Assembly (NCBI GenBank): GCA_000934665.2
Contig: KZ538217.1
Span: 62,001 to 98,693, forward strand
Direction: 5' to 3'
Source of the DNA: Catajapyx aquilonaris
Taxonomy: Eukaryota
Length of the DNA: 36,693 nt
The position numbers and the translations under genes were made by a program. The notes beneath the pieces were generated by a model. That model saw only the letters and a list, made by a program, of their open reading frames with translations. It did not search any database and was not told the DNA's origin. Numbering within the stretch: position 1 is the first letter of the stretch; each line of letters begins with the position of its first letter. Below, piece after piece: positions 6,287 through 36,693 of the stretch.

Positions 6287-9200
6287 ATGCCGTACTGTGC
6301 GGTACTGAGCTGTCCTGGGAAGGAAAAAATACATAGGTATCCGTCTACAAGTGGATCAAACTTGGAGCGTAGAAATGTATGGATCGAACGGACTAATCGC
6401 ATGGCAAAAGACGGTGGACCGTGGCAGCCGTCGCAATCAGCTGGATTATGCGATGTAAGTGTGTGGCTGGCCGTACAGAAATTGCTAGAGTACCAGTACG
6501 ATCATGCATGTGTTTCTTCTATTTAATGCGACTATTTAATTGCAGGCTCACTTTGAAAAGTCGCAGTTCGAGTTGCATCGGAGGGACGGCTTGAAGAAGC
6601 TCAAGCCTAATGCTCTTCCGACCTTGTTTCCTCAGCCCATAGGAAAGCTTCCTTCCCATGGGAAAGTTGGTCGGAAGCAACAACATGTGGTTCGCACAGA
6701 AGTTGATGAGACTCTGACTTCTCCCAAAGGCAGGAAAAAGGGTCGGACGAAGGAAACGGTAGAGAAGGAAGCGGAAAAGAAGAGCAGCGAGGAAGATGAT
6801 ATTGCACGGAATAATGGGGTGAATAAGAAGGTTAAGGAGGTGAGGATTACTAATTAACAATAATTGAGTACTAATCATTGACAATATGTAAATAATAATT
6901 GATTACTAATCATTGACAATAAGTAAATAATTGATTACTAATCATTGACAATAAGTAAATAACGTAAATTACAGTATGCCTTGAGGAGCAAGAAGGTAAC
7001 GCCTGCTAACCTCCTTTCATCGAGATCCAAGATGCAGTCGAGACGTACAAGAGGCACAAAGAGGAAGGCGGAGGAGCCCGTTGATTTGGTTAGTCGTTGG
7101 CTCCGTAAGGTAATCAATTTGGATATGATGATGCCAATGTCGCTTAATTATTTCAAGGTGTGTGTATCCGAGACACCCTCGAGCGCCAGGAAGAGAAAGG
7201 CAGAGGATGCCGCAGAGCCCATTGATTTGGTAAGTCAACAGCATATATTGAAATCATGGGCATCAAAGTCACTTTAATTATTTTAAAATGCGATTGTCAG
7301 TATATCATTATTTTTTTTCTCTTACTAGACAATGGACACCATGAGGAATATTCAAGCTGAGGTGTCTGAAGCAAGTGAAGGACAGGTATCTGAAGCAATA
7401 AATGAAGGAGACGTGAGCATGACATACTGTGAAAGTAGCTTTAAATGTCCGTTGTGCTGCAGCGAAAGCATGACATCTCTTCTCGCCCTAAAATGTCACT
7501 TGGAGTGGGTTATGGATCGCCTCCGCTGCCCTATCTGCAGTGACAAGTTCGTGAGTCTCAGGAGCATGGTCAAGCATCTGGAAGGACATCTGGTTAGATG
7601 TGAGTTATCTCGGGCACAAGAAGAAAGGTGTGAAGTCGCAGAAGAGACAACCATGCATGAGGACACTGACAATGTTGAAGATCATTCTCAGGTCAGCCAA
7701 GATAATAAATCCGCACAGACAAAATTTTTTCAGTGTTCTAATATTGAGCTGGTACTAATTTTGGGAGGAAACAATGAACTTAATGTAATTAGGACTATCA
7801 CTGCAAAAGCTATCAATTTTTCCATTCTCGCACTGTGAAGTCAAGTCGACTCAGAGTAATAAAAGGAAGCATATTAGTTAGTGTCATAAAATTATTGGAA
7901 CATGTGTGTTAAAGTTGGGATCACTTGACAGGATGATGGGTTAATCGCTGCTGATGAAGTGAACATGTCGGAAGGAGAGAAGTCTGATGCTGCGGATCTA
8001 CTGGAAAGCAGGACTGAGGTAAGCCTCCAGAGATGTTACAAGTAATAATTTTTATTGTCGTTCATATCTTATAATAATCATTGTCACTACAGGCTAAAGA
8101 AGAAGCCTTCAAGGTCCCACATGACCACTGCTACTCCAACAAGAAGGATGCACCGCAAGAAGACCTGACTTTAACAGAAACTAATAGTGAAGTGTTGGAT
8201 GACACTTTCACAGTGCCTTTGGTATTGCCTATAACGGTCACGCCTTCAACTGACCTTCCAATCAAGGTAGCTGCCGATGCGAATGGGCAGCTCATGCTGG
8301 AGATGGATCCCGGAGAAATGACATCGGCCATAACTACAGATCCTGCACCACTGATTCTTCCACCTGAGGTTCTTCAGTATGTGTTACAGAACGAAGCCCA
8401 GAGAAGAGCGGAAATCCCTTCACAGATGTCCTGGTGTATTGTGAAGGAACACAAACCACTTCCTGTTGCGAAAGCTATCCCGGAGAGGTGAGACATTTTT
8501 GTGGCTCACTCGTTTCAGGTCGCAAATTTCGGTTGAAGTTCTGTTGATGCAGGTTTCATTTTCGTATAGAAACAAATGTGGACTTTTGCATATCATAACT
8601 CGACTTCTTTCTGTTGCAGGGAAGACAAGCCCATAAGGCGTCTAAAATGCCACCGTTGCTATCGTAAATTCCGGCACCCGCGGGGTCTTCAAGATCACCA
8701 GCTAGATCACGCTACTCAAGATTCGGTGTGCGATAAGTGCGGTGAGGTATGCCCTTCGTTGCATGACCTTAAGACTCACTTGCGCACCCATAAGCGCAAA
8801 ACATACACTGCCCAATGCAACTTGTGCCAAAAAGTGGTGTCACGAAACAAGTTCAAAGAGCATATGGTTAGGCATGGTGAGCCGCACTTTGAGTGCCAGA
8901 CGTGCGACAAGAAGTTCTTCTTCGAGGCCAGCTTGGTGAGGCACACCTGGAAGCATACCGGAGTCAAGCCGCACTTGTGTGACACATGCGGAAAGACCTT
9001 CTCCACTTTAGATAAGATCAGAAGGCATTTGACCACTCACACTTCCCCCCAACATGGCCAATGCGAGAAGTGCAACGTCCAGTTCATGAGCTTGCACCAC
9101 AAAAAGGTACTTTAACAGGCTTTTTATTTAAGTCTGAAGCGTCTAAGGCCCATAATTTTCTAGGTTCACAAAAGGTGGCACTCTATTCAAGAGGAGCGCT

Positions 9201-9663
9201 GCGGTTTGCGATGCGACGCATGTTCCTTGGATTTCACGTCACTGGAGGAATATTCCGAACACATGAAGACTTCTCATGCTGGCAATGCTTCTATTGAATG
9301 TGATATTTGCAAGAAGCAGTTCAAAAATGAAGGTGCTCTCAGCCATCACATGCAATGGTGTCACATCCAGCCCTTGCAATGCCCCATATGCGATCGTCGT
9401 CTCGCCACAAAACCCACCCTCAAGGTCCATATTGAGAATCACAAGCTTGGAAAAGCCAGGACATTAAGGTAAGTTGGCAGCTTAAGAGCTATCCGGAATG
9501 TATATATAGAGATGTTATTCACTAACTGACATTTCATCACAGGGGTCGCAAAGGACATCGAAAGCGAGGATCGGATAAAAAGCCAGTCAGAACGAGGCGG
9601 AAAAAAATCAAAGCGACCGATTCGGCATCTACGCCGTTCGTAGCCGAAGATGATGCGCAATAA
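6287..9663 (+). CDS. Gene A: THAP + CPLCC double finger + HCF-binding motif + C2H2 array. Exons 6287-6454, 6546-6839, 6975-7088, 7158-7229, 7329-7691, 7932-8018, 8093-8487, 8620-9106, 9164-9468, 9543-9663
   Basis: THAP signature MPYCAVLSC...W...LCD|AHF...LKPNALPTLF; CPLCC module; DHCY at 8123-8134; C2H2 fingers with an HTGVKPH linker. Every junction is GT-AG and in frame. A 5'-UTR intron is likely at 6208-6276. Confidence 0.88.
6859..6962. repeat. Intronic tandem repeat, about 3 x 32-35 nt
   Basis: Unit aataattgattactaatcattgacaataagtaaat occurs three times with minor variants. Confidence 0.9.
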
Positions 9664-9724
9664 TGGTGCGATTTGTGGCATAAGCTCAAAAATTTATTTG
9701 AGCTGCAGAATATATTGCCTTCAT

Positions 9725-10064
9725 AGGGGAGACTGAGTGGCGCCGCGGTAACGTGCGCGCCCACGGATGTTAAGGTCCCGGGTTCGATCCCAGCCCGGGG
9801 ACACCCCCTTCATCTCGTGCAGAGTTTAGGGCCATCTCTGACTTCGTCTCGGGTGGTATTTCCTATAGACTAAACCACCCAGGGGAGCTCACAAAATGAC
9901 CACATATGTCATTGCACTGCACTTGCACATCCCCTCCTGTCATCCTCCCTATCGCTCGCTGTACCCGGGCGTTACGGCAAAAGGACCAACTGTATCAAGC
10001 TTGTACAAATTTAAGCATAAATAAAGGTACTGTGCCGATGCCCTAGGGCGGTGCACTAAAACCC

Positions 10065-10142
<78 letters not shown>
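9725..10142 (+). mobile_element. tRNA-derived SINE with (ATT)n tail and 14-bp target-site duplication
   Basis: Pol III A-box-like TGGCGCCGCGG and B-box GGTTCGATCCC at the head; (ATT)n tail about 10065-10142; flanks tatattgccttcat (9711-9724) and tatattgcctttat (10143-10156). Confidence 0.88.
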
Positions 10143-10147
<5 letters not shown>

Positions 10148-10673: not shown

Positions 10674-11515
10674 ATGGTTTCTTGTGTAGCCATAGGTTGC
10701 ACAAACAGATCATGCAAGAAGTATGACAAGAAAATTACATATCACATGTAAGTTTATTCATTCTCTTGATTTTTTGCATGTTGTATACACCATTCCTGCT
10801 GCATACATCACTCCTGACTTGTTTTTTCATGAGGTATTATATGGTTTCTTGGATAATGTTGATTATGACAAACAGGTTTCCCAAAAATCCTGAGAGGAGG
10901 AAGTTATGGATACGTGCAGTTCGAAGGAAGGATTGGAGCAAGCAGCCACCCGGGCCGTCTAAGATAATCCACCTCTGCTGTGAGCATTTCACAGAGGATT
11001 GCTTTGACCGAACGGGATTGGCGACTGTTCGACTGAGAGAAAATGCCATACCTACAGTCTTTCCGGGATTCCCATCTTATCTGCAGCATGTAAGTGAAGT
11101 AACAATCTATCTGAATAAAGATGTAATACACACGGTATAGTTGATAAAGTATATTTGACATTTCTAGCGACCTAAGGCAGTGCGAAAGCCTCCTAAGCGT
11201 CGGTCGTCTCTGTCCATCACAACAAGTGATGAGAAGAATGATGCAAGTAGTGAGCCACAGCATATACCTGATGCCGGCACAGTGAACATCACGACAGCTG
11301 GACCTTCAAGTTCAACAGTACCTAATCTGACGGAGCAACCGGATGCCACAGTGGACTTGGTTTCAGAATCGGCTTCGGCAAATGTTGTAGATACTCCACG
11401 CAAAGTCGCCCTTAAACGCAAGCTGGATAGTGTCACAGGTAAGTACAGTTCAGCTACAATTAAAAGTATGACGCGGACTTGTAGACGCTTAGTGAGAAAA
11501 ACTGCTGCGACTTAA
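10674..11515 (+). CDS. THAP + coiled-coil protein resembling a P-element transposase N-terminus, truncated (possibly pseudogenising). Exons 10674-10747, 10876-11089, 11168-11515
   Basis: MVSCVAIGCTNR...YHM|FPKNPERRKLW...LCCEHF...VRLRENAIPTVF, then TPRKVALKRKL. In-frame TAA at 11513-11515 is followed by 28 more open codons. AATAAA near 11635-11646. Confidence 0.8.
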
Positions 11516-11672
11516 ATAAGAAATCAATTTGGGGAACTCAAAAGTGGCAAATTGATATCAGGCGATGGCCTTGCTGTTCTTGAAGACATACCTGGGTTAT
11601 AGTAGAACCCAAATTGGCGAATATCTATTGGAAATAAATAAATAAATTGGACATTTAAAAGTATCGTCGATA

Positions 11673-11733
11673 TATCGATACAAAAAAATTAGCGATATAA
11701 TCTAGCCTTTCCAAGAATATCGATATATCGATA
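11673..11733. promoter_or_regulatory. Three TATCGATA (DRE-type) palindromes upstream of the second THAP/coiled-coil gene
   Basis: TATCGATA at 11673-11680, 11718-11725 and 11726-11733, 150-200 nt before ATG 11878. Confidence 0.5.
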
Positions 11734-15086: not shown

Positions 15087-15390
15087 TGCGCATGCGTGAT
15101 TCGGGCTCTGTAAGCAAAGTTGGAGCCTCATATTGCCATTGCGCATGCGTTCCATGCCCTACCCTAGTCAATTATCAACAATCGACTGATTTGGTAACAA
15201 TGCGCATGCGTGCTTCCGTCTTTCTGTGGTAAACAGCCTCTTGTGGACGCATGCGCATTGTGCACAAATGCGTGACGCTGCAATCTGCCGTGACCGTTTG
15301 CTCCGGTAATTTTCAACATCAACTGCCCGGTGTTATTGCGCATGCGTGCTTCCCTCAGTGTAGACTCAACTCCTTGCAACTGCGCATGCG
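15087..15390. promoter_or_regulatory. Array of six TGCGCATGCG (NRF1/Erect-wing-type) motifs
   Basis: Copies at 15087, 15140, 15201, 15248 (reverse), 15337 and 15381, upstream of CGCCATCTT (15450) and ATG 15655. Confidence 0.6.
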
Positions 15391-15654
15391 TGCGATGCTC
15401 GATAGTGTGAGGCTGCAATTTTCCCGTGACGTAATGTAAGGTTGCCCGGCGCCATCTTGTCTCCAAAATCCTCTTCTCTCCGTGTGTTTCCGTGTCCATC
15501 CCGGATCCTGGATTGTTGTTGCTCCTCCTGGGCATAAGGCGCGTCGCAACGATGCCCATCTAGATTGCACGGGGCACTTTCCCGCCCATTTTTCGTCGGT
15601 TCCCTGAGCTTTTGAAAGGTTTAAAAAGAGGGATAATAGAGACGAGGGAAGAGG

Positions 15655-15807
15655 ATGACTGGCTGCTGTGCCAAAGGATGCACCAACAGGACGGAAAAGG
15701 GGTTCAGGCTGTTCAGGTTCCCCGCCAACAAGATGGTCAGGGAGGTCTGGCTGGCCAGCGTCAAGAGGGGGGACAACTGGAACCCTGCTCATCCCTGCCT
15801 CTGTGAG
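15655..15807 (+). CDS. Gene B alternative first coding exon B1: N-terminal half of a THAP domain, predicted to splice to 18562
   Basis: MTGCCAKGCTNRTEKGFRLFRFP...W...CLCE then donor gag|gtgagg, phase 0. I found no xHF-encoding exon before 18562. Confidence 0.78.
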
Positions 15808-16516: not shown

Positions 16517-16531
16517 TTTGTTTTTTAAGAC

Positions 16532-17944: not shown

Positions 17945-20900
17945 ATGCCGGGCTGTGCAGCCAGATATTGCAAGAACAACCACATGAAAGGCTTCCGCCT
18001 TTTTAAATTCCCGTCGGATCCAGTAAGGAGGCTGGAATGGGCTAAAGTGATTGGCAGGGAGCCCCGACCCAATTCATCTCTTTGTGAGGTATGGCCCCCT
18101 TGCAATCATTCAACCCAAAATAATTTATAAAAAAAAGACACTTTTATCTCAATTTGTTCCAAGATCTTGTGTGCCTCTTCACCATTAGGCCGTGTTTACA
18201 TGCGATCGATTTGATCTGCGGGGAAATCAATTTTTTGGGAGAAATCGATTGTTACTTTTGCTCCAAACCATTCGACACTCAGCAAATCGCTCACATGTAA
18301 ACGCGGGTTTTATACTGCTTGATGCAAAAGACACTGTCTGTACTTTTATTTTTTGTTCAGTTAATCCAACTGTGGTAGCAACCTTGCACTCATTTTGAAC
18401 TTTGTTCGCTATTAGTACTTTAGTAGTTTTTTTTTTCTTTCCATTATCACAGAAAGAATGGCAAGAAATGGGTGTGGCCTGGTTGCGGTAGTAGCGACGC
18501 TGCACTGTTACACTCGAGACAACTTTCAGATTTATTTACCAGACGTATTGTTCCTCCGCAGGTGCACTTCGATGAGTCCCAGTACGAGAGTCATCGCAAA
18601 GATGGATGGAGGAAGCTGAAGCCCAATGCCGTTCCCACCATCTTCAACATCCCCGAGCCCCCGAAGCCATCCAAGCCCCTGAAGGCTGATGTTGCCAAGA
18701 CCCCCCGTGCACAGAAGCCCGGCAAGGGTGGCAACAAGACACCTGTCCTGCCACCGTACAAGAAGAGGGCCACCTGCAAGAAGGAAGTGGTGGAGGAGCC
18801 TGAGGCTGACGAGGCTGAAGATGATGTCGGTGTGGACATGGGAGGCGACGACTCACAGTCCGATGAAGAAGGGAAGGGAAGGAGAAGCACTCAGGACAAG
18901 GAAAACATAAGGAGAAAGGTAACCTAATATATTGTCACATCAAATTTACGCTTACTTTCGCTGCATTTTTGTTTCAGACTCCGTTGAGGGCCAGGAAATT
19001 GGGGCAAGCGTCTCCACCTCCGTCCCTGCAGAAGCCGTACCAGTTGAGGCGACTTGCCATGAAAAAGGAGGCTGTTGCTGACGACACGTTTGAGGACACT
19101 CCGGAGCTAGTTGAGAAGTCGTTGACTCGCAGAAAGTCCTGCATGGGGACCGCTGACGGGAAGGTGAAGTGTCCGCTCTGTTGCGGGGAAGCTCTTGTGT
19201 CGCTCCGTGCCCTCAAGTCCCACTTGGAGTGGGTCATGGGTCATCTCCAGTGCCCGGTCTGCAAGGACAGATTCACCAGCCTGAAGGGCATGGTGGGTCA
19301 CCTGGAGAGGCATCTTATGGACAGGGAAGACGCACAGAGCGACGAAGAGGGTCAGGACGACCCTGGAGAGACGGCGGTTGATGAAGTGGACGAGGACGGG
19401 GAGGAAATCACGCCAGATATTCATGTACGTCACATGCGTCTTGCTGCCCTATACTACTCGAGTTGATAGTAAACATTTTGGAGTAGCGTTTACATGTGAG
19501 CAATTTGCTTGAGCAATTGTTTGAGGGTGACAATCGAGTGTTACTTTTGTACCAAACAGTTGGTTTCATCGCTGAGCGAATCGCTCGCATGTAAACGCGG
19601 CCTAAGACTGAATTTTTAAATTTTGAATAGTGCGAATTTGGGCTGCAGGTTGTACAGTATGTGTTTTCTGGACGAGGCGTAATTTTAGTTTTTTTTATAT
19701 ATTTTTAGCCCGAACGTGAGATTGATCCGAAGCGGTTGAATTTAACGGAAGAAGCTGCTGAAGAGGATCCTTTAGGAGTCCGGACTGACGTACGAAACTG
19801 TTTTTCACTATTGTTATGCCTTCTCATTAGCGCCAGTTCTTGATTGTCGATGGTTTTGCAAATTGTACGCTTGCATAGTAACGGAAGGAATCTTTCAGGA
19901 CCCGGACGACGCGTCAAAGGTACCCCACGATCACAACTATTTCAACAAGAAAACCAAGACAACATCTGTCACCACGGTTTTACCCGAATGTCCTCCCAGC
20001 TCCTCCCAGATGGTTGTCCCGGTGGCCCCTTCGGACGTCATCCCCACCACCTCCCTGGCCCCAGTGCTGGAGAAGCCCCTCCAGTTCAAGATCGAGGCGA
20101 AGGCCAACGGGGAGATGGAAGCCACCACGACGGACCCTGCCGCACTGCAGCTCCCGCAAGAGGTCCTCCAGTTCATCCTCAACAACGACCAGATGAAGGA
20201 CAGGGCTGGGAACACGCCGCAGGTCACCTGGTGCGTGGTGCAGGACAAGAGGTCGGCGGACGCTGGAAAACCTCCAGTCTTGCCAGATGAAGTGGAGTTC
20301 CACAAGCACTTTCCCAAGAGGTGAGTAGTTTCATAATTGCGATGGAGCTTCATGTCAACTTGTCCTTTTGTTTGTTCCAGACGTGCCAAGTCGCAAGGCC
20401 AGTTTCGTTGCAACCGATGTCGGCGTGTGTTCCGCCATCCCGAGAGCCTCGAGCAGCATCAGGCGGAGCATGCGGAACAAATGTCAGTTTGCGAGAAGTG
20501 CGGTGAGATGCGGCCGTCTTTGCACGAGCTTAAAGTTCACATGCGTTCGCATCGCCGCAAGTCCTACATGCGCCAGTGCCCTCTCTGCGAGAAGGTCGTG
20601 TCCCAGCCCAAGTTCAAGGCCCATCTGGTCACTCACCGCGAGCCGCAGTACCAGTGCACGTTATGCAGCAAGCGGTTCTTCTTCGAGAGGATGCTCCTGA
20701 GGCACTCCTGGAGGCACACGGGGGTCAAACCCCACTTGTGCGACGTATGCGGAAACAGCTACTCATCGACAGAGCAGCTCAGAAAGCATTCGCTGAAACA
20801 CGCAAGCACTCAGTTTGGGCAGTGCGAGATTTGTGGGATGCGATTTGGAAGCACACATCACAAGAAGGTATTGTTTCGTTGCGGCAACTTAGTTTTTTTC

Positions 20901-21840
20901 TTGAGGTCTTTCACTCAGCAATGGAGCGGCCCTTTAACATGTGACTGAAATTTCGCAGGTTCATAGCACGTGGCATGCATCACAAGAGCGCCGCCGCTTC
21001 CGCTGCACGTCTTGTTCGGTGGACGGGATGTCGCTGCAAGAGTATCGCCAGCACAACGAGGCCAATCACGGAGGATCCCCGCAGTTCGAGTGCGACATCT
21101 GCCAGCGTGTCTTTAAAAGCGCGGGCTCCTTATACGGCCACAAGAAGTCGCGACACGTCAGCCCCATTTATTGCCCGATCTGCGGGCGATTCTTCTCGGC
21201 AAAGTCGTACCTCAGTGCCCATCTCGAGGCTCACAGGACTGGAAAGGCCAGGTTAGTTTGGGATAGGATTAATTGAGGTCCAATTAATTTACACGCTTTT
21301 CCTGTCTCCAGGTATGTGTGCCCCGATTGCGGTTTTGCGTATTCCGGCGTCTGCGCTGTCAAGACGCATCGGCTGAACCACCACCACTACACCCACCACC
21401 ACCATGGCGCTGGGAGTAGTGGTCGAGGCACCCTTGGGGAGGGGAAGAGACGGAAGAAGAAGGCTGACGGCAACAAAGGAGCGGCTGCGGAGAGGCAGAG
21501 CTACGAGATGGTTCCTGCGAGTGACTATCAAGTGACTATGGAGCACGGCTACCAGGACCAAGGTGGAATGGTGGAGGTGTCCACAGGCGGCACGGTCGTC
21601 CCCATCCCTCTTCACGAGCTGCACATGCACGGGCTCACCCTCCAAGCGCACCCACTGCAGGAGTTGGAGGTGCACGACATGCAGGTGGAAGCCGCGATGC
21701 AGGAAATGCAGATGCAGGTCATGCAACAGCAGCAACAACAGCAGCACCATCCGGAAGTGGAATATGTCGAATACGAACAGGTGAATCTGAAGGAGGAAGC
21801 CGACGTGAGTCAATACATCGTCGTGCAAGAAATGGAGTGA
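17945..21840 (+). CDS. Gene B (paralog of A): THAP + CPLCC + HCF-binding motif + C2H2 array + His/Gln-rich tail. Exons 17945-18088 (B2; or B1), 18562-18918, 18978-19424, 19709-19789, 19899-20320, 20381-20867, 20959-21251, 21312-21840
   Basis: MPGCAARYC...W...LCE|VHF...LKPNAVPTIF; CPLCC; DHNY at 19929-19940; fingers collinear with gene A; intron positions largely shared with A. Confidence 0.9.
18188..18308. mobile_element. MITE family 1 copy (intronic)
   Basis: ggccgtgtttacatgcgatcgattt ... aaatcgctcacatgtaaacgcgg. Confidence 0.75.
19483..19602. mobile_element. MITE family 1 copy (intronic)
   Basis: gcgtttacatgtgagcaattt ... aatcgctcgcatgtaaacgcggcc|taa. Confidence 0.75.
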
Positions 21841-23496: not shown

Positions 23497-26400
23497 TCAA
23501 ATGATGATCTCCTCGGACATCATGTTGTCCTCCGCTGCGATGGCGTAGCAATCCCCATCCACAATCTCCTCCAGTACTGTCTGCTCAATAATGGTTCCGT
23601 CCACTCCCGAGTCCGCAGTGCCGTGCATCTTCATGTGCGACTGGAGAGCAAAGATCTTGGCGTAATCCGCACCGCAGATGAAGCAGGAGAAGGCGAGCTT
23701 CTTCATGTCGTGGTCCTTCATGTGGGCCGTGAGGCTCTTGTTGAACGCGAACCCTCGTCCGCACAGCTCGCACTTGAAGGGACGAGTGTGGCAACGGACA
23801 TGCTGCCACAGGCGTTGACTCGACTTGAATCGTTTTCCGCACTGGTCGCAAACATGCTGTACATCATTGGGGTTCAGGTAACGCTCGATGTCGTCGGCCT
23901 CAACTTGCACCACCTTCGAACAATCATCATTTCAGTAACGTACATTTCCCACGTAAAATGTGACAAACCTTTGGCTCTCCGACCATTGCATCCGGATCAG
24001 AGTGGGACTCCAGATGAGCCCTGAAGCGATGCATTAGCTTGAATCCGGCCCCGCACACTGGGCAGGTGTGGGTGAACGGTCCCTCGGAGTGTGACAGAAG
24101 GTGCGTCTTCAAATGGGCGTGCAGATAGAAGCGGCGGTTGCACAGAGAGCAGGCATACGGCATGGTGTGCTTCCGACGCTTGTGCGCCTGGAAGTCAACG
24201 CTGCTGGTGAATCGCTCGGCGCAGAAGGGACACTGGTAGCGCTGGACTGTGCTGTGGTGCTTCTGCATGTGGTTGCGTTTCGTTGCGTAGCAGTTGAACG
24301 ACTGAAAAAAGGTCACATTATTACATGGCAGCGAGCTTGACTTAATCGCGCTTACCTTTCCGCATATTGCGCAGTTAAATTTCTTCCCGGTGTGCTTCGC
24401 CATGTGCTGATACCTCCCCATGTACGAGCGGAATCTCTTCTCGCAGTATTTGCAGTCGTAGTACTTGTCCGGCTCTGACTTTGAGTACGGCTTCACCCTC
24501 TGTTTTGGCGGCGCGGGCATCTCCGGCTGGATGGCATCCTCCGCATTTGTCTCTCCTTCTGCCGGCTCATGCGGATGGCAGTTGTTCTTCTTGTGCTGCC
24601 ACAGGCCGCTCCACTTGGTGAAGATCTTTCCGCATCCGTCGCACATGTACCTGCCGTCCCCCCTGTGGCCGCTCTCATGTTCGGCCAGATCGTAATTGCT
24701 CACAAATCTTTTCCCGCAGTAGGAACACAGGTGAGGGTATTCCCCGGTGTGGGTACGCATGTGGCGTCGCATGTTCGGGCCAGTACGGTACGTCTTTGCG
24801 CAGACCTTGCACTGGAAGGGCTTCTCACCCATATGGCGACCACGGCGATGCTGCATTAGAAGAGAGTCCGTGTGGAATCGCTTCGGGCATTCTGGACACT
24901 GCAGCTGCGGCCAGATATGGCTGCCCTTCTGAAATTACAACATTCATTACATTGTGTAACCGATGTTGGCTCTATTGTAACTCACGACGTGACTGTCAAG
25001 TGAAGACTTGTACTTGAAGACTCGTCCGCATTCCTCGCACTTGAATTCGCCCTCTTCGCCCTCTGCCTCCGCTTTCTCCTGCTCTTTGCCCGCCCCTTCC
25101 TCGTCCTCCTCCAGTCGCAAAGTAGGGTACTCCTCAGCGTCCTTCATCCCCATCTCCTTGTGCCTCTTCAGGTGGTTCTTGAGAACCCCGAAGGACTTCA
25201 CGATCTGTCCGCACCCGTAGCACTTGAAGTAGAAGCGCTTCCCATGCGACTTCTTTAGGTGGCTCACCAATGACGACACGGAAGTCACGTACCGCTGGCA
25301 TATGTGGCAGCGCATGATCTTCCAACCCTTGCCGTGAAGCGTCTCAGTCGCAATCACTTGCACTCCTAAGGAAATAATTTTCATTGTAAAAAACGCACAA
25401 ATTTTTTACCAAGCAGCATATCCTAACCTTTCAAGACAAGGTCGTCATCCTTTTCATCGTTCCCACCACTCTCCTTCTGGACTCCCCATTCCGGAAGCCC
25501 TTCCTCGTTGGCTGCTGGACTCGGTTCTTCAACTTCCGGATCAAGCGGGTCCGCATCTGCAGGTTGGTCCATTCCTTCCTCCGACATCGGATTCGGCTGT
25601 TCAGGTTCAGCCAGGATGACCATCTGAACTTCCGCCGGTTGTTCCACTTCCTTGTTTTTGCAGCCCTTCAGATCTATGAAGGGTAAGATGCATTGCTTCT
25701 TTGGACTCGAAGCGGTGCTGATGGGTGCGGAAGAGGGATTAGATCGCCCTGAAGCTGCGGCGGCAGCTGCCGCAGCCGCCGCCGCCGCCGCTTTCTTCTC
25801 CAACTCCTGACGGATGTAATAGTTATGCTCATTCGGCACCACGTCATCTTCACCCTAGTCAGGGAAAATAAGCATCGACATTATTACATAATAAGAACTA
25901 ATTCGCAACAGATTTCAGGAAAATGTACGTCCAACAAGCTCAGATTATGGGTCTCGCTTTATTTGGCTTCAGTACATCAGAACTGCCAATTACATCTTGT
26001 GCGATAATCTTATCAGCATTTCATTTCACTCGTCACACCAAACACTGGTCAAGTACTCATTACTTTGGGTACGAAGAGTAATACAATCCCTGCTGATGTA
26101 AATACGGACACTCGGCTGCATTTACTTCAGAACAACTACGGATCAAGCAGCTCCTCGCTTGCCACTTCGACAATCACGCTCACGTTAGTACAGTGCGACT
26201 CCATGTGCGCTTTCAGTACGTGCCTAAAAGCAAATCCATGCCCGCACATCTCGCACTTGAATGGCTTGGTGTGTGTACGCACATGATGCCACAGCTTCTG
26301 CGACGACGAGAACACTTTTCCACATTCGTCGCACACACAACTGCTTTCTGCCTTGATATCCTCCATGCTGACGACCTTAGGCTTAGATGCGCTATCCTCC

Positions 26401-29400
26401 TCATTCGTATGACTCCTGACATGCTCTTCAAACGCATTTTGGCGCTGAAATTCTGCACCGCACTCGCCACATGTGTGATTAAACGTGCCTTCATGATGAG
26501 CCAACATGTGAGTTCGGAGATGTGGCATCGTGCCAAAGCGACGGCCACACAAGCCACATGCCAAGGGGCGCGTATGTCGCCTCTGTTTGTGTTCACTCAG
26601 CTGTATCTTACTTCCAAAACACTCGTCGCATTGCGGACATTTAATAGTCAGGCCATCCGAATGCATGCGAGATTTATGTTGCCACAAGGACACGTATGAC
26701 TTCAGTACTTGTGGGCAACTTGGACATGGCCATACCCGTCCGGCGTGTGAGTCACGATGCTGCTTGTACCCACCGTATGTCTTGTATGACTTTTTACACT
26801 CCTTACACTCGTAAGTGTAGGCTCGCCTTGCTGGTGGCACCTGTCCGCAAAGTCTCCGATGGCGGTACAACTGCGAGTACGCCTTAAAAGTACGTCCGCA
26901 TCCGTCACACTGGTACGACTCATTCTCGGCATGACTCTCCTCATGCTCTTTCAAATGGAAGCTCGATGTAAATTTCTTGCCACAGTACGAACACAGGTGA
27001 TGGCGCGTGTCATTATGTCGATCGATATGCCGCTTCAAAACTTGCCTCGAAGCGAAACTCTTATTACAGTGCGGACAATCAAACGGGCGCTCTCCCGTGT
27101 GCTTCAAATTGTGTTGCTTTAAAGCGGCACGAGTAGGAAATTTCTCTTCGCAGATGTCGCAAGTGTATCGAAATTCACGATGCACCTTGGTGACATGCCG
27201 GTGGCGGTTTGGACGACCAGTGAATGATTTGTCGCAGTGAGGGCATGGGTAAGCTTTTGGCGACTTGAAAGTAAACTCTTCGTTATCGGATGTACCATCA
27301 GTATCGTCCATAATCGCATCTATAGACTCGTTTAGCGGACCTGCTTCCGATAGAATGTATGACTGCGATCCGCGGTCTACGAAAGATTCATTGGGATCAA
27401 GTACGACTCCCACTTGCTTGTGGCTCAAGTCATCAGCCGGCACAACCTTCGGAGAGTCTCGCCTTCTGACTTGCATCTCTCGAGCCTTCTGAATGACTTC
27501 CTTCCTGTGCGCCTCCAAATGATCGGTCATTCCTTCGTAGGTTCCCTCGCTCCTGCCGCATGTCACGCACGTATATATTAATCCGTCCTTCCCTCGCTCT
27601 TCCAGGGCGGCACGATCGTAGTGCACATGCACACAGCACACATCGTCATCGTCCTCTTCGTAGCGGTTCGGCATCTGGAAGATACGCTTGCAATAATGGG
27701 TTGAAAACCAGTCATCGTCTTTTTTTAAAAAAATTTGTCTTCTTCTCAGCACACATGTTCTTCTGGGTGTGGTAAATCTTGAGTAATGCTTGTAATGAAA
27801 TTCTGCATTGTTGTAATTATGTGTATGCATTCCATGCGAACTATTTCGGAAAGGAATTACGACAAACAAAATTCTTTTGTCCGTCGACTGTTCGGTCCTT
27901 CCACATTTTAATTGAGTGTAAATATGGCAGTGGCCGTAACTATTCCCAAATTTCACATTCAGCACATTTCAACACAGAAATTCCACTACATATTTCCCCC
28001 CCACAAAAAAAAACATTGCAGCCTAGCCAAACAGCTTCGCGTGTTTATAAATATCAGCACAACATCTTCGACCGTAATAAAACAACCTCCAGCCGACGTA
28101 AAGTAACTCGTAATTCTCACCTCCAAAGGAATAGCAGTGTGCGGGACTGTGTCCACTTCCTGATGGCCAGACTTCCTCATCTCCGCAGTCGCCTTTCCTC
28201 CCAAATCTTTTGGGCACTTCTCGCCAATGTGACTTGCGAGGCTTGTAATGGAATCGAATCCGGTGGCTCCACAAGCAGGACATGACATTTTCAGAGATTC
28301 CAGGTGGTGCTGGAGGGCTTGGCGTGACAGAAAAGTGGCGTCGCAGCAGAGGGGACACTTGAGAGATCCCTGCAATAACAAAATGATGGGTTTATGCAAT
28401 TGTACAAGTACATACACTATGATTCGATAGTACAAGCCTTTCAAATAACTCTACGAACCTGTTTGTTCTCCTTAGCATTACCACTCTTGGCTTCTCGGAA
28501 GTGAGACGGAGCTTCCTTCCCTGGCTTGCTCGGATTAGGGTCGAAGTGAAGCTGGCAAAAGAGGTCAAAATTTGAAGCCGCTTATTCCTCTGTACATGCG
28601 AAAATTACTTACCTCGCATATGACTGAATTTGCAATCTTCGAGAGAGATGGCCATGAGAGAAATTTGAGCCACTTTTGCTGCACTTCTTTGGTCTGCGGA
28701 AACGGATAGAACTGCATGCTCACCAGGGACGTGTTCGAAAGGCAACCAGGGACGCAGCAACGTTTTACGCCTTCTTGAAGGTTCGTTTTCACAGCTGGAA
28801 TCGACATGAAAACATAAGTACATCTCCAGGATTTTCATAATCGTGGTACTGACCTATCCTGCCCTTGGTGTTGTCCTTTGGCCTCTCTTCGTACTCGAGA
28901 GGCAGGGAAGGTGGGACGTATCCTTCAGGCAAAGGATATATCTTCCCATCAAATATCTTAGGCACAGCAGTGATCAGAAGCTTGTCCTTGTAGGCCGAAC
29001 GGAACTGCGAGTCTTCGAAGTGCTCAGCGCAGAGCACCAAGCCTTTGAAGCGGGCCTTCGCTGGAGTAATGTCCTCTCGTTTACACATTGTTAACCAGAT
29101 CTTGCACCTAGAAAAATTGACAATTAGCGAGCGTATAGAAACAGTTGTCATACGGAATTACCTTTCCTCGTCGACGGGGAATCTGAAGAACTTTGTGTCC
29201 GAGTTCCATCCCTTCCTGTTGTAGCAATTGGGTGCTGTGCAGAATGGCCCCCTGCACTTCTTCCCCAGCCCCGCGTTCTCCTTCAGCTGAGCGTACCCGC
29301 GCATCACGTTGTGGGCGTGCAGGGCAAGCACCTCGTCGTCCTCCTCTTCCCTCTCCCCGACCTGTCCCGCCCCTCCCTCGTCCCCCACCTCGTTTGGCTG

Positions 29401-29574
29401 CTCCAGCTCCTGCAGGATGTACCCTTCAGGAATCTCCCCGATCAGCGCCTCCATCTCCCCGCACCGAGTCAGAACCACAATAGGATTGACGTGGTCTCCC
29501 CCCATTGTGACCGCCATCATCTGCGGCTCAGGCTCGCCCATCACCACTGCATCGGTGCTGGCAGCCGCTTCCAT
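23497..29574 (-). CDS. Gene C, long form: acidic leader + THAP + degenerate THAP + CPLCC + HCF-binding motif + poly-Ala + C2H2 array 2. Exons 29574-29162, 29107-28854, 28794-28613, 28551-28459, 28369-28121, 25854-25428, 25365-24986, 24928-24356, 24301-23969, 23913-23497
   Basis: THAP1 FCTAPNC...FFRFP...W...LCAEHF...AVPKIF; THAP2 RCCVPGC...FYPFP...W...ICE|LHF; CPLCC; EHNY at 25830-25819. All junctions are GT-AG and in frame. The 28121-to-25854 join is inferred from phase and from the architecture of paralogs A and B. Confidence 0.8.
26136..27674 (-). CDS. Intronless C2H2 array 1: alternative terminal exon of gene C, or a nested same-strand retrogene
   Basis: 1539-nt open exon starting at acceptor cttccag|ATG (phase 0), with many fingers collinear to array 2, a stop at 26136 and minus-strand AATAAA near 25960. 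Confidence 0.88.
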   Translation of the reverse strand: MPNRYEEDDDDVCCVHVHYDRAALEERGKDGLIYTCVTCGRSEGTYEGMTDHLEAHRKEVIQKAREMQVRRRDSPKVVPADDLSHKQVGVVLDPNESFVDRGSQSYILSEAGPLNESIDAIMDDTDGTSDNEEFTFKSPKAYPCPHCDKSFTGRPNRHRHVTKVHREFRYTCDICEEKFPTRAALKQHNLKHTGERPFDCPHCNKSFASRQVLKRHIDRHNDTRHHLCSYCGKKFTSSFHLKEHEESHAENESYQCDGCGRTFKAYSQLYRHRRLCGQVPPARRAYTYECKECKKSYKTYGGYKQHRDSHAGRVWPCPSCPQVLKSYVSLWQHKSRMHSDGLTIKCPQCDECFGSKIQLSEHKQRRHTRPLACGLCGRRFGTMPHLRTHMLAHHEGTFNHTCGECGAEFQRQNAFEEHVRSHTNEEDSASKPKVVSMEDIKAESSCVCDECGKVFSSSQKLWHHVRTHTKPFKCEMCGHGFAFRHVLKAHMESHCTNVSVIVEVASEELLDP

Positions 29575-29724: not shown

Positions 29725-31010
29725 TAAAGGAAAGTTAGTTACTTAGTCAGTTTGTCAGTTAGCTAGGTGGTGAGTTTGTTACCTTGTTTGTTAACGACTG
29801 AGCTTGTTAACTATGGTTAACATGGTTAGAATGTGCTAGCTAGTTAGTGAGTTTATTAGCTAGTTGGTGAGTTCTTTGCTTGTTTGTTAACTTGTAAGTG
29901 CGTTTCTTAGCTAGTTGGTGAGTTCGTTAGATTGTTAACTAGTTCGTTTGTTAACTATGGTTAACATCCCCCGAAAAGGGTAAAGCCCTCGAAAGGGGTT
30001 TCATAATAAATAAAATAAATAAATAAACTATGGTTAACATGGTTTGTGAATTTATGAGCTAGTTAGTTAGCTAGTTAGTGAGTTTATTAGCTAGTAAGTG
30101 AGTTCATTAGCTAGTTAGTGAGTTATTTGTTTGTTAACTAGTTCATTTGTTAACTATGGTTAACATGGTTTGTGAATTTATGAGCTCGTTAGTTAGCTAG
30201 TTAGTGGGTTTGTTAGATAGGTAGTTAGTGGGTTTGTTAGATACGTAGTGAGTTCGTTAGATTGGTAGTGAGTTCTTTAGCTTGTTTGTTATCTAGTTAG
30301 TTGTTAACTACATGGTTAAAATGGTTAGTGGGTTTGTTAGATAGGTAGTTATACTAGGGGCAAGATAACTCATGCGTTTGGGGAAGTGGCTTGTAACCTT
30401 GGCAACCATAATTAGCCCCGCCCCCTGCTGAATTTTTTTTGTATGGAATTTAGAACGATTGGGGGGGGGGAAATATTTCCTCCTGCTGGGTTACCAGTAG
30501 CGTAAGTGTAAACAAACCCATCTCATTCTTGAGGCTTTAGAGAACATAACGCCCATCTCCTTTGAAATCGAATCATCTGATAGGTCAACCGGTAGAGGGC
30601 GGGGCTAATTACGGCTGCCAAGGGCACAAGCCACCTCCCCAAACGCATGAGTTATCTTGTCCCTATTGTAGTTTGTTAACTAGTTTGTTAACTATGGTTA
30701 ACATGGTTAGTGGGTTCGTTATCTAATTAGTGAGTTTGTTAGGTAGGTAGTTTGTTAGATAGTTAGTGAGTTTGTTAGGTAGGTAGTTAGTTAGTTAGTG
30801 ACTGTTAGTTTCTTAGATAGTTAGTGACTCTGTTAGTTTCTTAGATAGTTAGTGACTCTGTTAGTTTCTTAGATAGTTAGTGACTCTGTTAGTTCCTTAG
30901 TTAGTGACTGTTAGTTTCTTGGATAGTTAGTGACTCTGTTAGTTTCTTAGTTAGTGACTCTGTTAGTTTCTTAGATAGTTAGTGACTCTGTTAGTTTCTT
31001 AGATAGTTAG
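29725..31010. repeat. Low-complexity TTAG/GTTA-based satellite grading into a ~28-nt minisatellite; abuts an assembly gap (N 31011-31022)
   Basis: Recurrent ttagctagttagtgagtt and gttaactatggttaacatggtt; from about 30800 the unit is ttagatagttagtgactctgttagtttc. Confidence 0.9.
30352..30668. mobile_element. MITE with ~75-bp inverted termini and TA flanks, inserted in the satellite
   Basis: caagataactcatgcgtttggggaagtggcttgt...taattagccccgccc is mirrored by gggcggggctaatta...acaagccacctccccaaacgcatgagttatcttg. Confidence 0.88.
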
Positions 31011-32403: not shown

Positions 32404-34125
32404 ATGGAGCCTTTGAGGAAGAGCCCCAGGAAAAGTGCCGCAGCTCAGTCTCCCCAGAAGCGTGCGAGGATCCAACTCTTTAAGGATAACGACAGTTCCA
32501 ACAGTATTTCAACTACGCCACCTCGGAAGACTCGCTACCCTGCAACACCAAAGTCGGGTTCTAAAGAAGATACGTCAAAGCCCATCTTAACACCAAAGCG
32601 GGTAAAGCAGCTGGCTTTGCCTGATTCTCCAGAGAGCCGCACCAGTGGAGATACGTCAAAGTCCAACGTGACTCCAAAGCGTGTGAAGCAGCTGACTTCC
32701 AATGCGGATTCTCCAGAGAGCTGCAGTTCCAGGACCAATGGAACATCTGAAGTGCCTCGGACTCCTACCGCCAAGTCTCGCGGTGCTAATGCTGCGACTC
32801 CAAAGTCTGTTGGATCTGTAAAGTTCAACTTGACTCCCAAGCGTGTAAGGGAACTTGCTTCAACGCCTGAGGCGCCGCGGACCTCCTCTAGATCCAACCC
32901 AGGGACACCATCAACACCTTACAATCTCCGTCGTCGCATCCAGAAGCAATTTGAGAAAGCGCTGGAAGAGAGCGACTTGAGCGACAGTGAAAGCGATTAC
33001 AATCCGTCGGACTCCGAGAGTGAATCGGAAGTGTCGGAGCAAGAGCTTGAAGAAGATGATCCGTTTCCTGTGTCAACACCTAAGCGGACCCGAAAGAGGA
33101 ACGTGCACGATGGTGATGACTCTGAAGATATTGAGTCGTACTTTTCAGCGCAGGGAAAGCAGCATACATCAAGCCACACTCTTGGGCGACTTCGCAATCC
33201 GCAGTTGTCTCGTGCTACTGTACATTGGGCAGTGTCGTCGCGAGTTGCGGACCATGCTGCACAGCGTAAAGAACTTACTCAGGAACACTTGGAGTCGTTC
33301 TCAAAGTGGATGGTGATGCTGAACGAAGGCTACAATTTGATCCTGTATGGCCTTGGATCGAAACGCAACGTACTAGATGCATTCCGCGCGAAAATGTGTT
33401 CAGCTTATGATGTCATTGTGGTTGACGGATGCTTTCCGTCATTAAGTATCAAGCAGGTGCTGGATAACATATCAGAGGAATTTCTGGGCCATGACGGATC
33501 ATTCGGTACGACCTTAGAACAGGCGACGTTCATCGCAAAACATGTTACCATACCGCTTGTATTGTTAGTACACAACATGGACGGTCCAGCACTGAAAGAC
33601 GAAGGTGCGCAGATGGCATTTGCGACGCTAGCAAGTGTGCGTAACATACTCTTGATCGCCTCGATTGATCACGTTAATGCCAAGTTACTATGGGATCACA
33701 ACAAGTTGTCCCGCATGTGCGTCAAGTGGGTGGATGCCACCACTTTCGCGCCTTACTTGGACGAGACCGCTTTCGAGGACATGATCCTGCTGAACCAGAA
33801 CAACACCCTTGCTCTGTCGTCTCTCACACACGTGTTCTGCTCGCTAACTCCAAACACGAAGAAGATCTTTCTACTTATCCTGCGCCACCAGATGGAAAAT
33901 CCGTCCGACTTGTCATGTCCTGGAATCGCATTTTCCGAGCTATACCAGAGCTGTCGAGAGGCGTTTCTGGTCAACTCCGACTTGACATTGCGGGCACAAC
34001 TGACCGAGTTTAAGGATCACAAACTGATCAAGATGAAGAAAGGAGCGGACGGGATGGAGTACCTGGTGGTGCCTCTCAGTGAAAAGACCATAGCCGAGTT
34101 TTTAGAGAAGCAGTCGAACGAGTAG
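32404..34125 (+). CDS. ORC2: Origin recognition complex subunit 2, single coding exon (573 aa)
   Basis: ORC2 motifs YF...TSSHTL, GYNLILYGLGSKRNVL, LLVHNMDG, LIASIDHVNAKLLWD, DATTFAPY..ET, FLVNSDLTLRAQLTEFKDHKLI. Acceptor at 32358; AATAAA at 34186-34191. Confidence 0.97.
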   Translation: MEPLRKSPRKSAAAQSPQKRARIQLFKDNDSSNSISTTPPRKTRYPATPKSGSKEDTSKPILTPKRVKQLALPDSPESRTSGDTSKSNVTPKRVKQLTSNADSPESCSSRTNGTSEVPRTPTAKSRGANAATPKSVGSVKFNLTPKRVRELASTPEAPRTSSRSNPGTPSTPYNLRRRIQKQFEKALEESDLSDSESDYNPSDSESESEVSEQELEEDDPFPVSTPKRTRKRNVHDGDDSEDIESYFSAQGKQHTSSHTLGRLRNPQLSRATVHWAVSSRVADHAAQRKELTQEHLESFSKWMVMLNEGYNLILYGLGSKRNVLDAFRAKMCSAYDVIVVDGCFPSLSIKQVLDNISEEFLGHDGSFGTTLEQATFIAKHVTIPLVLLVHNMDGPALKDEGAQMAFATLASVRNILLIASIDHVNAKLLWDHNKLSRMCVKWVDATTFAPYLDETAFEDMILLNQNNTLALSSLTHVFCSLTPNTKKIFLLILRHQMENPSDLSCPGIAFSELYQSCREAFLVNSDLTLRAQLTEFKDHKLIKMKKGADGMEYLVVPLSEKTIAEFLEKQSNE

Positions 34126-34338
34126 AAACTCGTGAGTCGTACTCAGTTTATAATGGTCGATATTTTTGTACTTTTTTTTAATTGAAATAAATCTCACTCG
34201 ATGGAAACAGTCATTTTGTTAGATAGGTTGTGGTCTATTGCGATAATTCGGCACATTATAGTAAGTAAATTTTTCTATTCGTCTTTTCACCAGATTAATG
34301 AAGAAATTAATTGCTTTATTTTATTCCAGTGCATCGTC

Positions 34339-36693
34339 ATGTTGCCGCTGACGTGTCCCCTATGCTGCGAGTGTCACTTCGACACCTGGTCGGACTTGCA
34401 CTCTCATCTGGCCTCGTTAATTAACGATGGCATGACATGTCCCAAGTGCAACGTGAGGCTTGGTATGGATGAGATTCTCTCGCATGTAAAGTCGCATGCG
34501 GATGATGAAATGATGCCGGGCGATATGCTGGGAATTATGGAGGAGGTGGAGGTTGGAGATGAGACGTCGGCAACTGACATGTCTTCGGCTGTGGAGGACG
34601 AGGCTGCTAATTCCGATGATGAGTCGGGCGGAGAAGACGAGTATTGTTGCGCTAAGTGCGGCAAGTTTCTGATGGGTACGGATGGTCTTACGCAGCATGA
34701 GGCTGCCTGCATAAGCGGCGACATGGACTGCGACGTCGACGACTTGGAAACATCCGCTGGCTTAGCAAATTCTAATGACAAGTTGGGAACAAGCGTCAAC
34801 GATGCAAACATTGCCTTTTGCACCATTATTCACGATCCAAGCGTTAAGTGCAATGAATTGGGCACCGCGGATTCCCAGGAAACGACGGCCTTCAGCGTCT
34901 TTCCTACCTCCGCTGGACCACCGCCTGAAACTTTGGACAAGTTCACAGTCGAGGATCCGGAGAAGACTGTCCTACTAGTGATGCCGTCAGAGTCCGGCGA
35001 ATCGAAGCTTGAACCGCAAAAATTCCAGATCCTCTACAAGGAAGCGGATGCGCCGCAAAACCATCAAACTCCGAGTTCCTCTAATTTCGACAACAACAAG
35101 GAGGTGTTCATTTACATCACAAATCCAGACCAGGTGAGTAATTTCTATTAATTGTTACGCTGCATGGTGATGATAATATGATCGGCAGGTGGTGGACATC
35201 ATTAGCTGCAGGAAATGCCGCTGCACCTTCTCCGTCTCGGAGTGGAGACGCCACCATAGCACTTGCGGAAAAATCAAGACGCAAGTTAGGAAGGTTCAGG
35301 TCTCGCCGAAGACGCATCTTCTGGACAAGCTCTGGTGCGAATCATGCGGCAAGAATTGGCCGAAAGAGGAATGGGGAAAGCATGTGGCCCTTCTGGTCAT
35401 GTGTGAGGTTTGCGACAAGTACGTGAACCACGCGCTAGTAGACAGACATGTGGAGTGGCTGCACAAGGATATGACAAGCTTCCAGTGCGATGTGTGCGAA
35501 GAGAGCTTCGAACGCGCTTCTCTCAGGTGTGTTTACATACGTATCTGCGTTTACATATGAGCGATTGTTACTTTCGCTCAAGTTGCTCATATGTAAATCA
35601 GTAAATGCGGCATTTGGGCTGTTCTAATTGTTAAACTCTTACAGATTGCAGCATATGAGCGAAGCCCATCCGGAAGTAAAATGTCTTTATTCGACCAGAG
35701 AGAAAGCGCCGCCCATTAAAAATTCGGTTCAGGCGGTCAACCAGCTGCGGTTTCTCTGCCCGTACTGCTGGGAAGTGTTTTCTACCTCGGAGCTGCTACG
35801 CAAGCATGTGCGGACACATTTGGCGCATGTTCCTACCACGTGCGTGTACTGCCCGAGAAGATTCACGTCGCCTGTGGAATGCTGGGAACATGAGCGGATA
35901 CATTGCAATAGTGGGAAGCCGTACGTGTGTCACTTCTGTACGAGCGTGTTTGCAACGAATGAGGCTTGTACGCATCATATGAACGCACATGCGGATAGTC
36001 CGAGCGAGCCGAGATATGAGGAGGCGGTGTTGAGTGACGGTGTGTGTCAGGCGTGTGGCATGGTGGTTGACCCGCGGGACTGGCCAGCTCATGCTCAGAT
36101 ACTAGTAAAGTGTGATGTGTGTTTAAAGCACGTTCAGCACATTGTGCTGGATCGACATGTGTCAATACGGCACAGTAGCGTGTGCCTGCTGCGATGTCCG
36201 CTGTGTGACGATGCATTCACTAAGCCATCTGAAAAGTTGCAACACATGTTGACTCACACGCAAGACATCCAGGCGAGCGTACAAAAAGAAACGTGCCTCA
36301 CATGTCCTGTGTGCCAAAAAGTGTTTGTTCGTAGCCAGTGGTTTAAGATGCATTTGAGCCAACATGAAGCGCCACAGCAGTACGCATGCTCGCAGTGTGC
36401 CCGTCGCTTCCGCACTGAGCAAGCGCTACTTCGACACGAGGCGAAACACCCCGAATACAGCCGGTACATGTGTCCGCACTGTCCACGCACCTACCTTTCA
36501 TCAGTGGATTTGAAGTTGCACTACTTCTGTCATCTGTGCCGTACAGAAGCTCCCGAGGATTTGTCGAACCAGCCGAGCTTTCCAGGCGAGGAAATACAAG
36601 AACCCGTCTCCTCTGATCTAATGGAGGAGATGTACGTGTGCGAGGCTTGCGACCAACAGGTGCCACTCGAGCACTACGTACGCCACAGGAAGC
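34339..36693 (+). CDS. Gene D: N-terminal CPLCC double finger + acidic linker + mixed C2HC/C2H2 fingers, running off the window. Exons 34339-35133, 35189-35526, 35645->36693
   Basis: MLPLTCPLCCECHF...HL...CPKC...H..SH. The third exon (absent from the ORF track because it has no stop) reads LQHMSEAH...FLCPYCWEVFSTSELLRKHVRTH... and appears open to the end. Confidence 0.88.
35546..35611. mobile_element. Internally deleted MITE family 1 copy (intronic)
   Basis: ctgcgtttacatatgagcgattgttactttcgctcaagttgctcatatgtaaat...gcggc. Confidence 0.65.

What the first reader, a model, noticed from the sequence alone, without database searches (positions are those of the whole stretch)
6287..36693. Candidate system: a modular THAP-CPLCC-HBM-zinc-finger family diversified by duplication and exon choice
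Seen: genes A, B and C share the ordered cassette THAP > CPLCC double finger > VPx[DE]HxY > long C2H2 array, and D keeps CPLCC plus fingers. B appears to swap its THAP front half, C appears to swap its finger array, and the locus is dense with MITEs and P-like THAP genes. Known: THAP is the P-transposase DNA-binding domain and [DE]HxY recruits HCF-1. Inference: a lineage-specific expanding TF family functionally analogous to KRAB-ZNF or ZAD-ZNF clusters, possibly targeting transposons. That function is not shown by the sequence.
Basis: partly seen in the sequence, partly recalled or inferred. Interest (0 to 1): 0.8.

Follow-up and report, generated by a model that had tools for sequence, protein, structure and literature searches.

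The report
Zinc-finger family repeatedly capturing transposon heads
An old insect zinc-finger gene has been copied about a dozen times in this genome, and several copies likely took their front DNA-binding domain (THAP) from different jumping genes; two of them may also choose between alternative front or back ends, but that choice and any role against transposons are untested.

Summary
The anatomy is real. A, B and C (through its second ending only) read THAP > CPLCC double finger > VPx[DE]HxY > C2H2 array; D has CPLCC plus fingers. Spliced contigs of one run confirm 6 of 7 introns of B and 7 of C, but none of the four joints that would show exon choice. The CPLCC module is not new to this lineage: it heads THAP-less zinc-finger proteins of termites, a cockroach and a wasp. 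I found 11 copies here, 5 with THAP, 3 with the full cassette. Four close paralogues carry THAP heads of two transposase types (AU p = 0.0004), so heads were likely captured or replaced more than once. B's spare half-THAP exon is intact and has no other second half. Duplicates are old and base-contact residues have not changed faster than others, which does not fit a KRAB-like arms race. The scan noted other THAP-zinc-finger clusters in this genome before. Verdict: new variant of a known kind (transposase-domain capture by zinc-finger genes).

The parts
6287..9663 (+). Gene A: 10 coding exons, 801 aa, THAP (intron at CD|AHF) > CPLCC (aa 256) > VPHDHCY (aa 374-380) > 9 C2H2 fingers
10674..11600 (+). 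T1: P-like THAP plus coiled coil, in-frame stop at 11513-11515, no catalytic core; THAP 73% identical in DNA to the head of a THAP-C2H2 gene on contig C1079
11878..14015 (+). T2: THAP plus coiled coil, no catalytic core; last exon ends at a phase-0 donor (13974) or reads through to a stop
15655..15807 (+). Spare first-half THAP exon (51 codons, ATG to CE|GT, phase 0); candidate alternative first coding exon of B
   Evidence: Pfam THAP E 4e-8; only xHF second half downstream is at 18562; 31 of 50 aa identical to a P-like transposase with third positions near saturation, 12 of 28; joint not seen
17945..18088 (+). Proximal first-half THAP exon of B (48 codons, CE|GT, phase 0)
   Evidence: Pfam THAP E 1e-6; joint to 18562 not seen
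18562..21840 (+). Shared body of B: THAP second half, CPLCC, VPHDHNY, 10 C2H2 fingers, Q/H-rich tail
   Evidence: open model; 6 of 6 introns of this body seen as joints, that at 18918/18978 with only 20 letters on its short side
28121..29574 (-). Shared front of C: acidic start, THAP1, shortened THAP2, CPLCC exon ending at a phase-0 donor (28120)
   Evidence: open model; 3 of 4 introns seen as joints
26136..27674 (-). C ending 1: intronless 512-codon finger array without the HCF motif, begins with ATG at the acceptor; poly(A) signal at 25958
   Evidence: joint from 28121 not seen
23497..25854 (-). C ending 2: five exons, VPNEHNY, 15 C2H2 fingers; paralogue of ending 1 (38% identity, E 1e-85)
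   Evidence: 4 of 4 internal introns seen as joints; joint from 28121 not seen
34339..36693 (+). Gene D: CPLCC at the N terminus plus about 12 fingers, no THAP, no HCF motif; cut by the contig end
1..888 (+). Finger array of a fifth family member (gene 0) whose CPMCC exon lies about 1 kb before the window

Best explanation
This is a tandem group of zinc-finger genes that share an N-terminal CPLCC double finger also found in other insects, and whose THAP heads were likely captured by splicing from P-like transposases on more than one occasion, giving predicted multi-grip transcription factors that would recruit HCF-1. Steps: (1) shown: THAP-less CPLCC + C2H2 proteins exist in termites, a cockroach and a wasp, and 11 related copies exist in this genome; (2) shown for C, weakly for B, modelled for A, C1728 and C1958: THAP exons are spliced in front of CPLCC; (3) inferred from trees and intron positions: at least two independent captures or a head replacement; (4) inferred: B uses two alternative first exons that each supply half a THAP domain (about 65%), and C uses two alternative last parts, one with and one without the HCF motif (about 55%); (5) inferred: THAP and the C2H2 array bind DNA, the [DE]HxY motif recruits HCF-1, and the targets are most likely host promoters rather than young transposons.
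For: Gene models open. Joints in run X1. THAP-less homologues: Zootermopsis P0003, Periplaneta P0183, Cryptotermes P0184, Chelonus P0166. A, B, C1728 and C1958 group by CPLCC (85/87) and share a second motif, yet A/B heads have the CE|xHF intron of the P-like transposase on C2310 (PF21787, E 1e-18), while C1728/C1958 heads have the intron before FP and group with T1, T2 and other P-like elements (87/87); holding the four heads together is rejected (AU p = 0.00045). At least 147 THAP matches among 150 scored candidates give ample donors. Spare exon intact, no other second half, no transposase remnant behind it. Endings 1 and 2 of C are collinear paralogues with compatible phase and a separate poly(A) signal.
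Against: No joint for any of the four alternative splices; the acceptors at 18562, 27675 and 25855 score low against a matrix built from the window's own introns (3.4, 4.9, 1.7; most training sites 4-14). One run only, not on record as RNA. Trees rest on 53-59 columns with long branches, and the CPLCC clade is below the starred mark; I had seen a first THAP tree before the test, though the group was named from CPLCC. C1728 and C1958 are models without RNA and one uses a GC donor. The HCF motif is absent from the termite and wasp proteins and does not always bind. No binding or expression data.
Confidence: 0.65

Rival explanations
1. No exon choice: the exon at 15655 is a stranded relic of a P-like insertion, and ending 1 of C is a separate single-exon gene (or retrocopy) nested in C's intron.
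For: No joints. The spare exon is closer to a P-like transposase (31 of 50 aa) than to B's own first exon (21 of 48). Ending 1 starts with its own ATG, lacks the three introns that ending 2 has in the aligned part, and lies in a frame open for about 98 codons before that ATG; its acceptor is within the background range.
Against: The spare exon keeps ATG, both cysteines, P, W, the third cysteine and the donor while third positions are near saturation and the rest of the element is gone. Only 446 bases separate C's donor from ending 1, and the phase fits.
Confidence: 0.3
2. A KRAB-ZNF-like defence family: the arrays or the THAP heads track transposons and CPLCC is the effector that recruits a repressor.
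For: Lineage-specific copies, no close database relative of B's fingers, heads of transposase type that could bind the ends of their donor families, as shown for KRABINER (bioRxiv 10.1101/2020.05.07.082677, passages).
Against: Only 11 copies found; duplicates are old (A/B 36% overall). Identity at positions -1, 2, 3, 6 is 14 of 36 against 39 of 100 at other non-structural finger positions for A/B, and 15 of 44 against 40 of 127 for C's two endings. CPLCC is predicted to fold as two C2H2-like fingers, with no known repressor link.
Confidence: 0.12
3. One ancient THAP-CPLCC fusion, with later divergence and intron shifts, and loss of THAP in the other copies.
For: All five fusions have the same order; trees are short and weak.
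Against: Homologues in four other insects lack THAP; the one-clade test for four heads is rejected; intron positions match two different transposase types.
Confidence: 0.12

Closest known systems
THAP-ZAD-ZNF genes CG6689 and CG10431 of Drosophila (PMC9810180, three passages read)
   Same: A THAP domain gained independently, twice, in front of the N-terminal module of a tandem insect zinc-finger family; a paralogue keeps only a THAP fragment.
   Different: Here the host module is a CPLCC double finger, not ZAD; an HCF motif follows; alternative THAP halves may be in use.
Host-transposase fusion genes by transposase capture (Cosby et al., bioRxiv 10.1101/2020.05.07.082677, abstract and passages)
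   Same: Transposase DNA-binding exons spliced to host regulatory genes, often first as alternative isoforms.
   Different: There the transposase part is mostly added behind KRAB in tetrapods; here THAP is added in front and the finger array is kept. Binding to the donor transposon is not shown here.
Human THAP proteins with an HCF-1 binding motif (PMC13631171, passages)
   Same: N-terminal C2CH THAP domain and a [DE]HxY motif.
   Different: They end in a coiled coil, not in CPLCC plus a C2H2 array; T1 and T2 resemble that layout more than A-C do.
Insect CPLCC-C2H2 proteins (Zootermopsis XP_021942368.1, Chelonus XP_034951287.1; automatic names only)
   Same: N-terminal CPLCC double finger, long linker, C-terminal array; the copy on contig C5371 also shares their third atypical finger.
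   Different: No THAP, no HCF motif; function undescribed as far as these calls show.
Drosophila P neogenes with swapped THAP exons, and mod(mdg4)/lola (recalled; only reference titles seen; the paper itself not held)
   Same: Alternative DNA-binding exons on a shared body.
   Different: Not checked here; those bodies are a P repressor or a BTB domain.

Membership tests
THAP domain proteins | C2CH ligands plus conserved P, W, F, P | tested here: met
   A, both forms of B, C THAP1, T1, T2 in the alignment; Pfam PF05485 over cut-off for 6 exons. C THAP2 has the ligands but lacks the last box.
THAP domain proteins | Sequence-specific DNA binding | not testable with these tools
   needs a binding assay
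HCF-1 binding proteins | [DE]HxY motif | tested here: met
   A, B, C ending 2; 0.6-1.2% in shuffles; absent from C ending 1 and D
HCF-1 binding proteins | Association with HCF-1 | not tested
   motif is an imperfect predictor
ZAD-ZNF | N-terminal zf-AD domain | tested here: not met
   no zf-AD among the 24 Pfam families matched by the 10 CPLCC members nor in the exons
KRAB-ZNF | KRAB domain | tested here: not met
   no KRAB match in the 27 frames scanned, which are not all exons
KRAB-ZNF (works-like test) | Faster change at base-contact residues between paralogues | tested here: not met
   14/36 vs 39/100 and 15/44 vs 40/127; two pairs only, protein identity, old duplicates
KRAB-ZNF (works-like test) | Binding to and silencing of transposons | not testable with these tools
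   needs ChIP or knock-down
P-element transposase (for T1, T2) | Catalytic RNase H-like core behind THAP and coiled coil | tested here: not met
   tblastn of P-like bodies hits only THAP and coiled coil in the window; no Pfam match
P-element transposase (for T1, T2) | Terminal inverted repeats and target duplication | tested here: inconclusive
   one search lists no pair that frames T1 or T2; only the 25 longest of 31 pairs were shown
Host-transposase fusion genes | Transposase-type domain on separate exons spliced to a host domain | tested here: met
   C joints, B joint with short side, THAP type shared with P-like transposases
Host-transposase fusion genes | Dated insertion shown by empty site in related species | not testable with these tools
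   no related genomes held

The most novel reading that the evidence does not exclude
CPLCC is an unnamed insect N-terminal module, a third kind beside ZAD and KRAB, whose genes act as a standing socket for transposon THAP exons: heads are exchanged in evolution (two types on four close paralogues) and within one gene (B completes one THAP domain from either of two halves, with T2 as a possible further head), while C switches HCF-1 recruitment on or off together with its finger array, so that each captured head lets the host bind the ends of the donor P-like family.
Probability: 0.2. Interest if true: 0.72.

Novelty: new variant of a known kind. Interest (0 to 1): 0.42.

Why it matters
It gives a compact invertebrate case of transcription factors being assembled from transposase DNA-binding exons, with donors still in the genome, and points to an unnamed N-terminal double finger kept from termites to wasps. 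If B's two half-exons are both used, one THAP domain would be built combinatorially across an intron; four RT-PCR reactions would decide this. The principle (THAP gained repeatedly by a zinc-finger family) is already known from Drosophila, which limits the surprise.

Tried and rejected
Census by a codon pattern for CPxCC: 345 matches against 153 for the reversed control, but 0 of the first 30 loci fetched were real double fingers; the excess is compositional and was dropped. Profile search of 1.84 billion representatives was swamped by ordinary poly-finger proteins; 2 of the 150 listed had the N-terminal module (P0132, P0166). Atlas search gave only generic finger clusters. Exact look-up of ORC2 and of C ending 1 found nothing. 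No RNA holder was listed by the run search; the single run X1 is of unrecorded kind; parts without cover (T1, most of T2, 27480-27914) are no evidence. The 31-base inverted pair 14907/17570 around the spare exon was considered as transposon ends; the genome search found only the neighbouring short repeat as multi-copy (40 of 638 candidates scored), so this is unsupported but open. Homodimer prediction for CPLCC: no verdict (0.71, one control 0.53). Fold searches found only C2H2 pairs, best Z 5.3, rmsd 3.7 over 53 residues. My model of C ending 2 mis-cut one exon (corrected); the C THAP2 row was out of frame and was left out, as was the C2382 THAP row. The density of short inverted-repeat elements against the genome was not measured. 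Literature: seven searches on THAP, zinc finger, exon shuffling and capture listed no paper on this family; none used the word CPLCC, and subscription papers and supplements were not seen.
Full report
Setting. The window is G000:C388:62001-98693 of a 286 Mb genome with short introns. It holds an adenosine-kinase-like gene (PfkB match at 4108-4479) and an intronless ORC2 (32404-34125) among zinc-finger genes. The homologues found are from insects; I did not identify the species.

Observation. Exon models with GT-AG introns give open frames for A (801 aa), B (919 aa), C with either ending (909 aa with ending 1; 397 + 709 aa with the corrected ending 2) and D (726 aa, cut off). A, B and C with ending 2 have the order THAP, CPLCC double finger, VPx[DE]HxY, C2H2 array. 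C with ending 1 lacks the motif; D lacks THAP and motif. The motif arises in 0.6-1.2% of shuffles of each linker. A and B are clear duplicates (36% overall, 134 of 254 in the finger array, same intron positions in the THAP and finger exons). C is more distant: its arrays match A and B at 23-28%.

RNA-like evidence. One run holds the region; its contigs skip GT-AG introns, so I read it as RNA though it is not on record as such. It shows 6 of B's 7 introns (all but the first; the joint from the THAP second half to the CPLCC exon has only 20 letters on one side), 3 of 4 introns in C's front, including THAP1-THAP2-CPLCC, and 4 of 4 inside ending 2. None of the four branch joints appears among the 12 joints listed; depth there is low, so this is no evidence against them. 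A and D were outside both laid stretches.

Origin of the core. The CPLCC module stands at the very start of THAP-less poly-finger proteins of Zootermopsis, Cryptotermes, Periplaneta and Chelonus and of one unnamed protein. In this genome three protein queries gave 11 copies: gene 0, A, B, C, D on C388, and C1728, C1958, C1388, C5371 and two on C2382 (9 of 10 matches; D; C2382b among 23 matches; checked). This is a lower bound. C5371 shares a third atypical finger with the termite and wasp proteins and is the likely orthologue, although the 53-column tree does not resolve it. Five copies have THAP exons in front; my motif scan of the flanks saw none on the same strand for the others (C5371 has only about 1 kb upstream). 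Three of 11 have the full cassette. C1728 (323 aa) and C1958 are short, with THAP, CPLCC and a second motif but no long array. The module is predicted with mean pLDDT 92 as two C2H2-like fingers; Pfam matches the second finger; the first has an invariant extra cysteine and usually no second histidine. B's main finger exon has no relative above 32% identity among 47 candidates (weak search).

Origin of the heads. The heads of A and B have the intron at CE|xHF, as does a P-like transposase on C2310 (THAP, HCF-like motif, coiled coil, PF21787). The heads of C1728 and C1958 have the intron before FP, like T1, T2 and other P-like elements. These four genes group by CPLCC (85/87) and share a further motif, yet a tree holding their heads together is 33 log units worse (AU p = 0.00045, 16 rows, 59 columns). 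Inference: at least two captures or one replacement. Caveats are short alignments, long branches and unconfirmed splicing in C1728 and C1958. T1's THAP is also 73% identical in DNA to the head of an unrelated THAP-C2H2 gene on C1079, another sign of head traffic. The genome has at least 147 THAP matches (150 of 282 candidates scored), and HCF-like motifs occur in 5 of 9 P-like loci scanned, so both parts are common here.

Exon choice in B. The exon at 15655-15807 ends in the same phase and at the same residue as B's proximal exon, and joins in frame to 18562. No other second half lies between and no transposase remnant follows it. It is 31 of 50 identical to the C2310 transposase with 12 of 28 third positions shared, and 21 of 48 to B's proximal exon: a separately captured, old and intact exon rather than a duplicate. 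Five GC-rich palindromic motifs and a YY1-like motif (labels recalled) lie at 15088-15457 just upstream. I put use as an alternative first exon at about 65%.

Exon choice in C. Ending 1 is an intronless, collinear paralogue of ending 2 (38%, E 1e-85), in phase with the donor at 28120, with its own poly(A) signal at 25958. It also begins with ATG and its acceptor is unremarkable, so a nested single-exon gene remains possible. About 55% for an alternative last exon. If so, the choice also decides whether the HCF motif is present.

Function. From established knowledge THAP and C2H2 arrays bind DNA and [DE]HxY can recruit HCF-1, though not always (PMC13631171, passages). Paralogue pairs show no excess change at base-contact positions (14/36 vs 39/100; 15/44 vs 40/127), the family is small and the duplicates old, so ordinary regulation of host genes is likelier than an arms race. 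Binding of THAP heads to their donors' ends, as for KRABINER, cannot be excluded.

Comparison. Closest are the Drosophila THAP-ZAD-ZNF genes, where THAP was gained twice by a zinc-finger family (PMC9810180, passages), and transposase capture in tetrapods (bioRxiv 10.1101/2020.05.07.082677, passages). Lineage-specific THAP expansions are widespread in animals (PMC10027918, passages). It is not a ZAD or KRAB member. Earlier notes of this scan describe several other THAP-zinc-finger clusters in the same genome and half-THAP exons sharing one exon in an octopus (unchecked); none names CPLCC.

Verdict. Observation partly confirmed, interpretation partly supported; new variant of a known kind; interest 0.42.

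Noticed in passing
window:32404-34125: ORC2 is encoded without introns, with a long TP-rich N-terminal part holding three related repeats.
   Followed up: no
window:29730-31010: Degenerate tandem repeat of short G/T-rich units, interrupted by an inverted-repeat element at 30350-30670 and ending at an assembly gap, just upstream of gene C.
   Followed up: no
window:16061-17190: Several nested or adjacent short inverted-repeat elements between the two THAP first-half exons of B.
   Followed up: partly
L055:608-2083 (G000:C2382): An intronless THAP gene lies head to head with a CPFCC-finger gene, a possible stage before fusion.
   Followed up: partly
L111 (G000:C1079): THAP head 73% identical in DNA to T1, fused to an 8-residue tandem repeat and a C2H2 array without CPLCC.
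   Followed up: partly
L092-L094, L097, L099: Internally deleted copies of the C2310 P-like element that join the first 25-30 THAP codons to the end of the transposase.
   Followed up: no
window:20151-20243 and 8347-8450: Unnamed motif (EVLxF ... VxWCxV) shared by A, B, C1728 and C1958 between the HCF motif and the fingers; no Pfam match.
   Followed up: partly
window:4119-5433: Adenosine-kinase-like gene (PfkB) between gene 0 and gene A.
   Followed up: no
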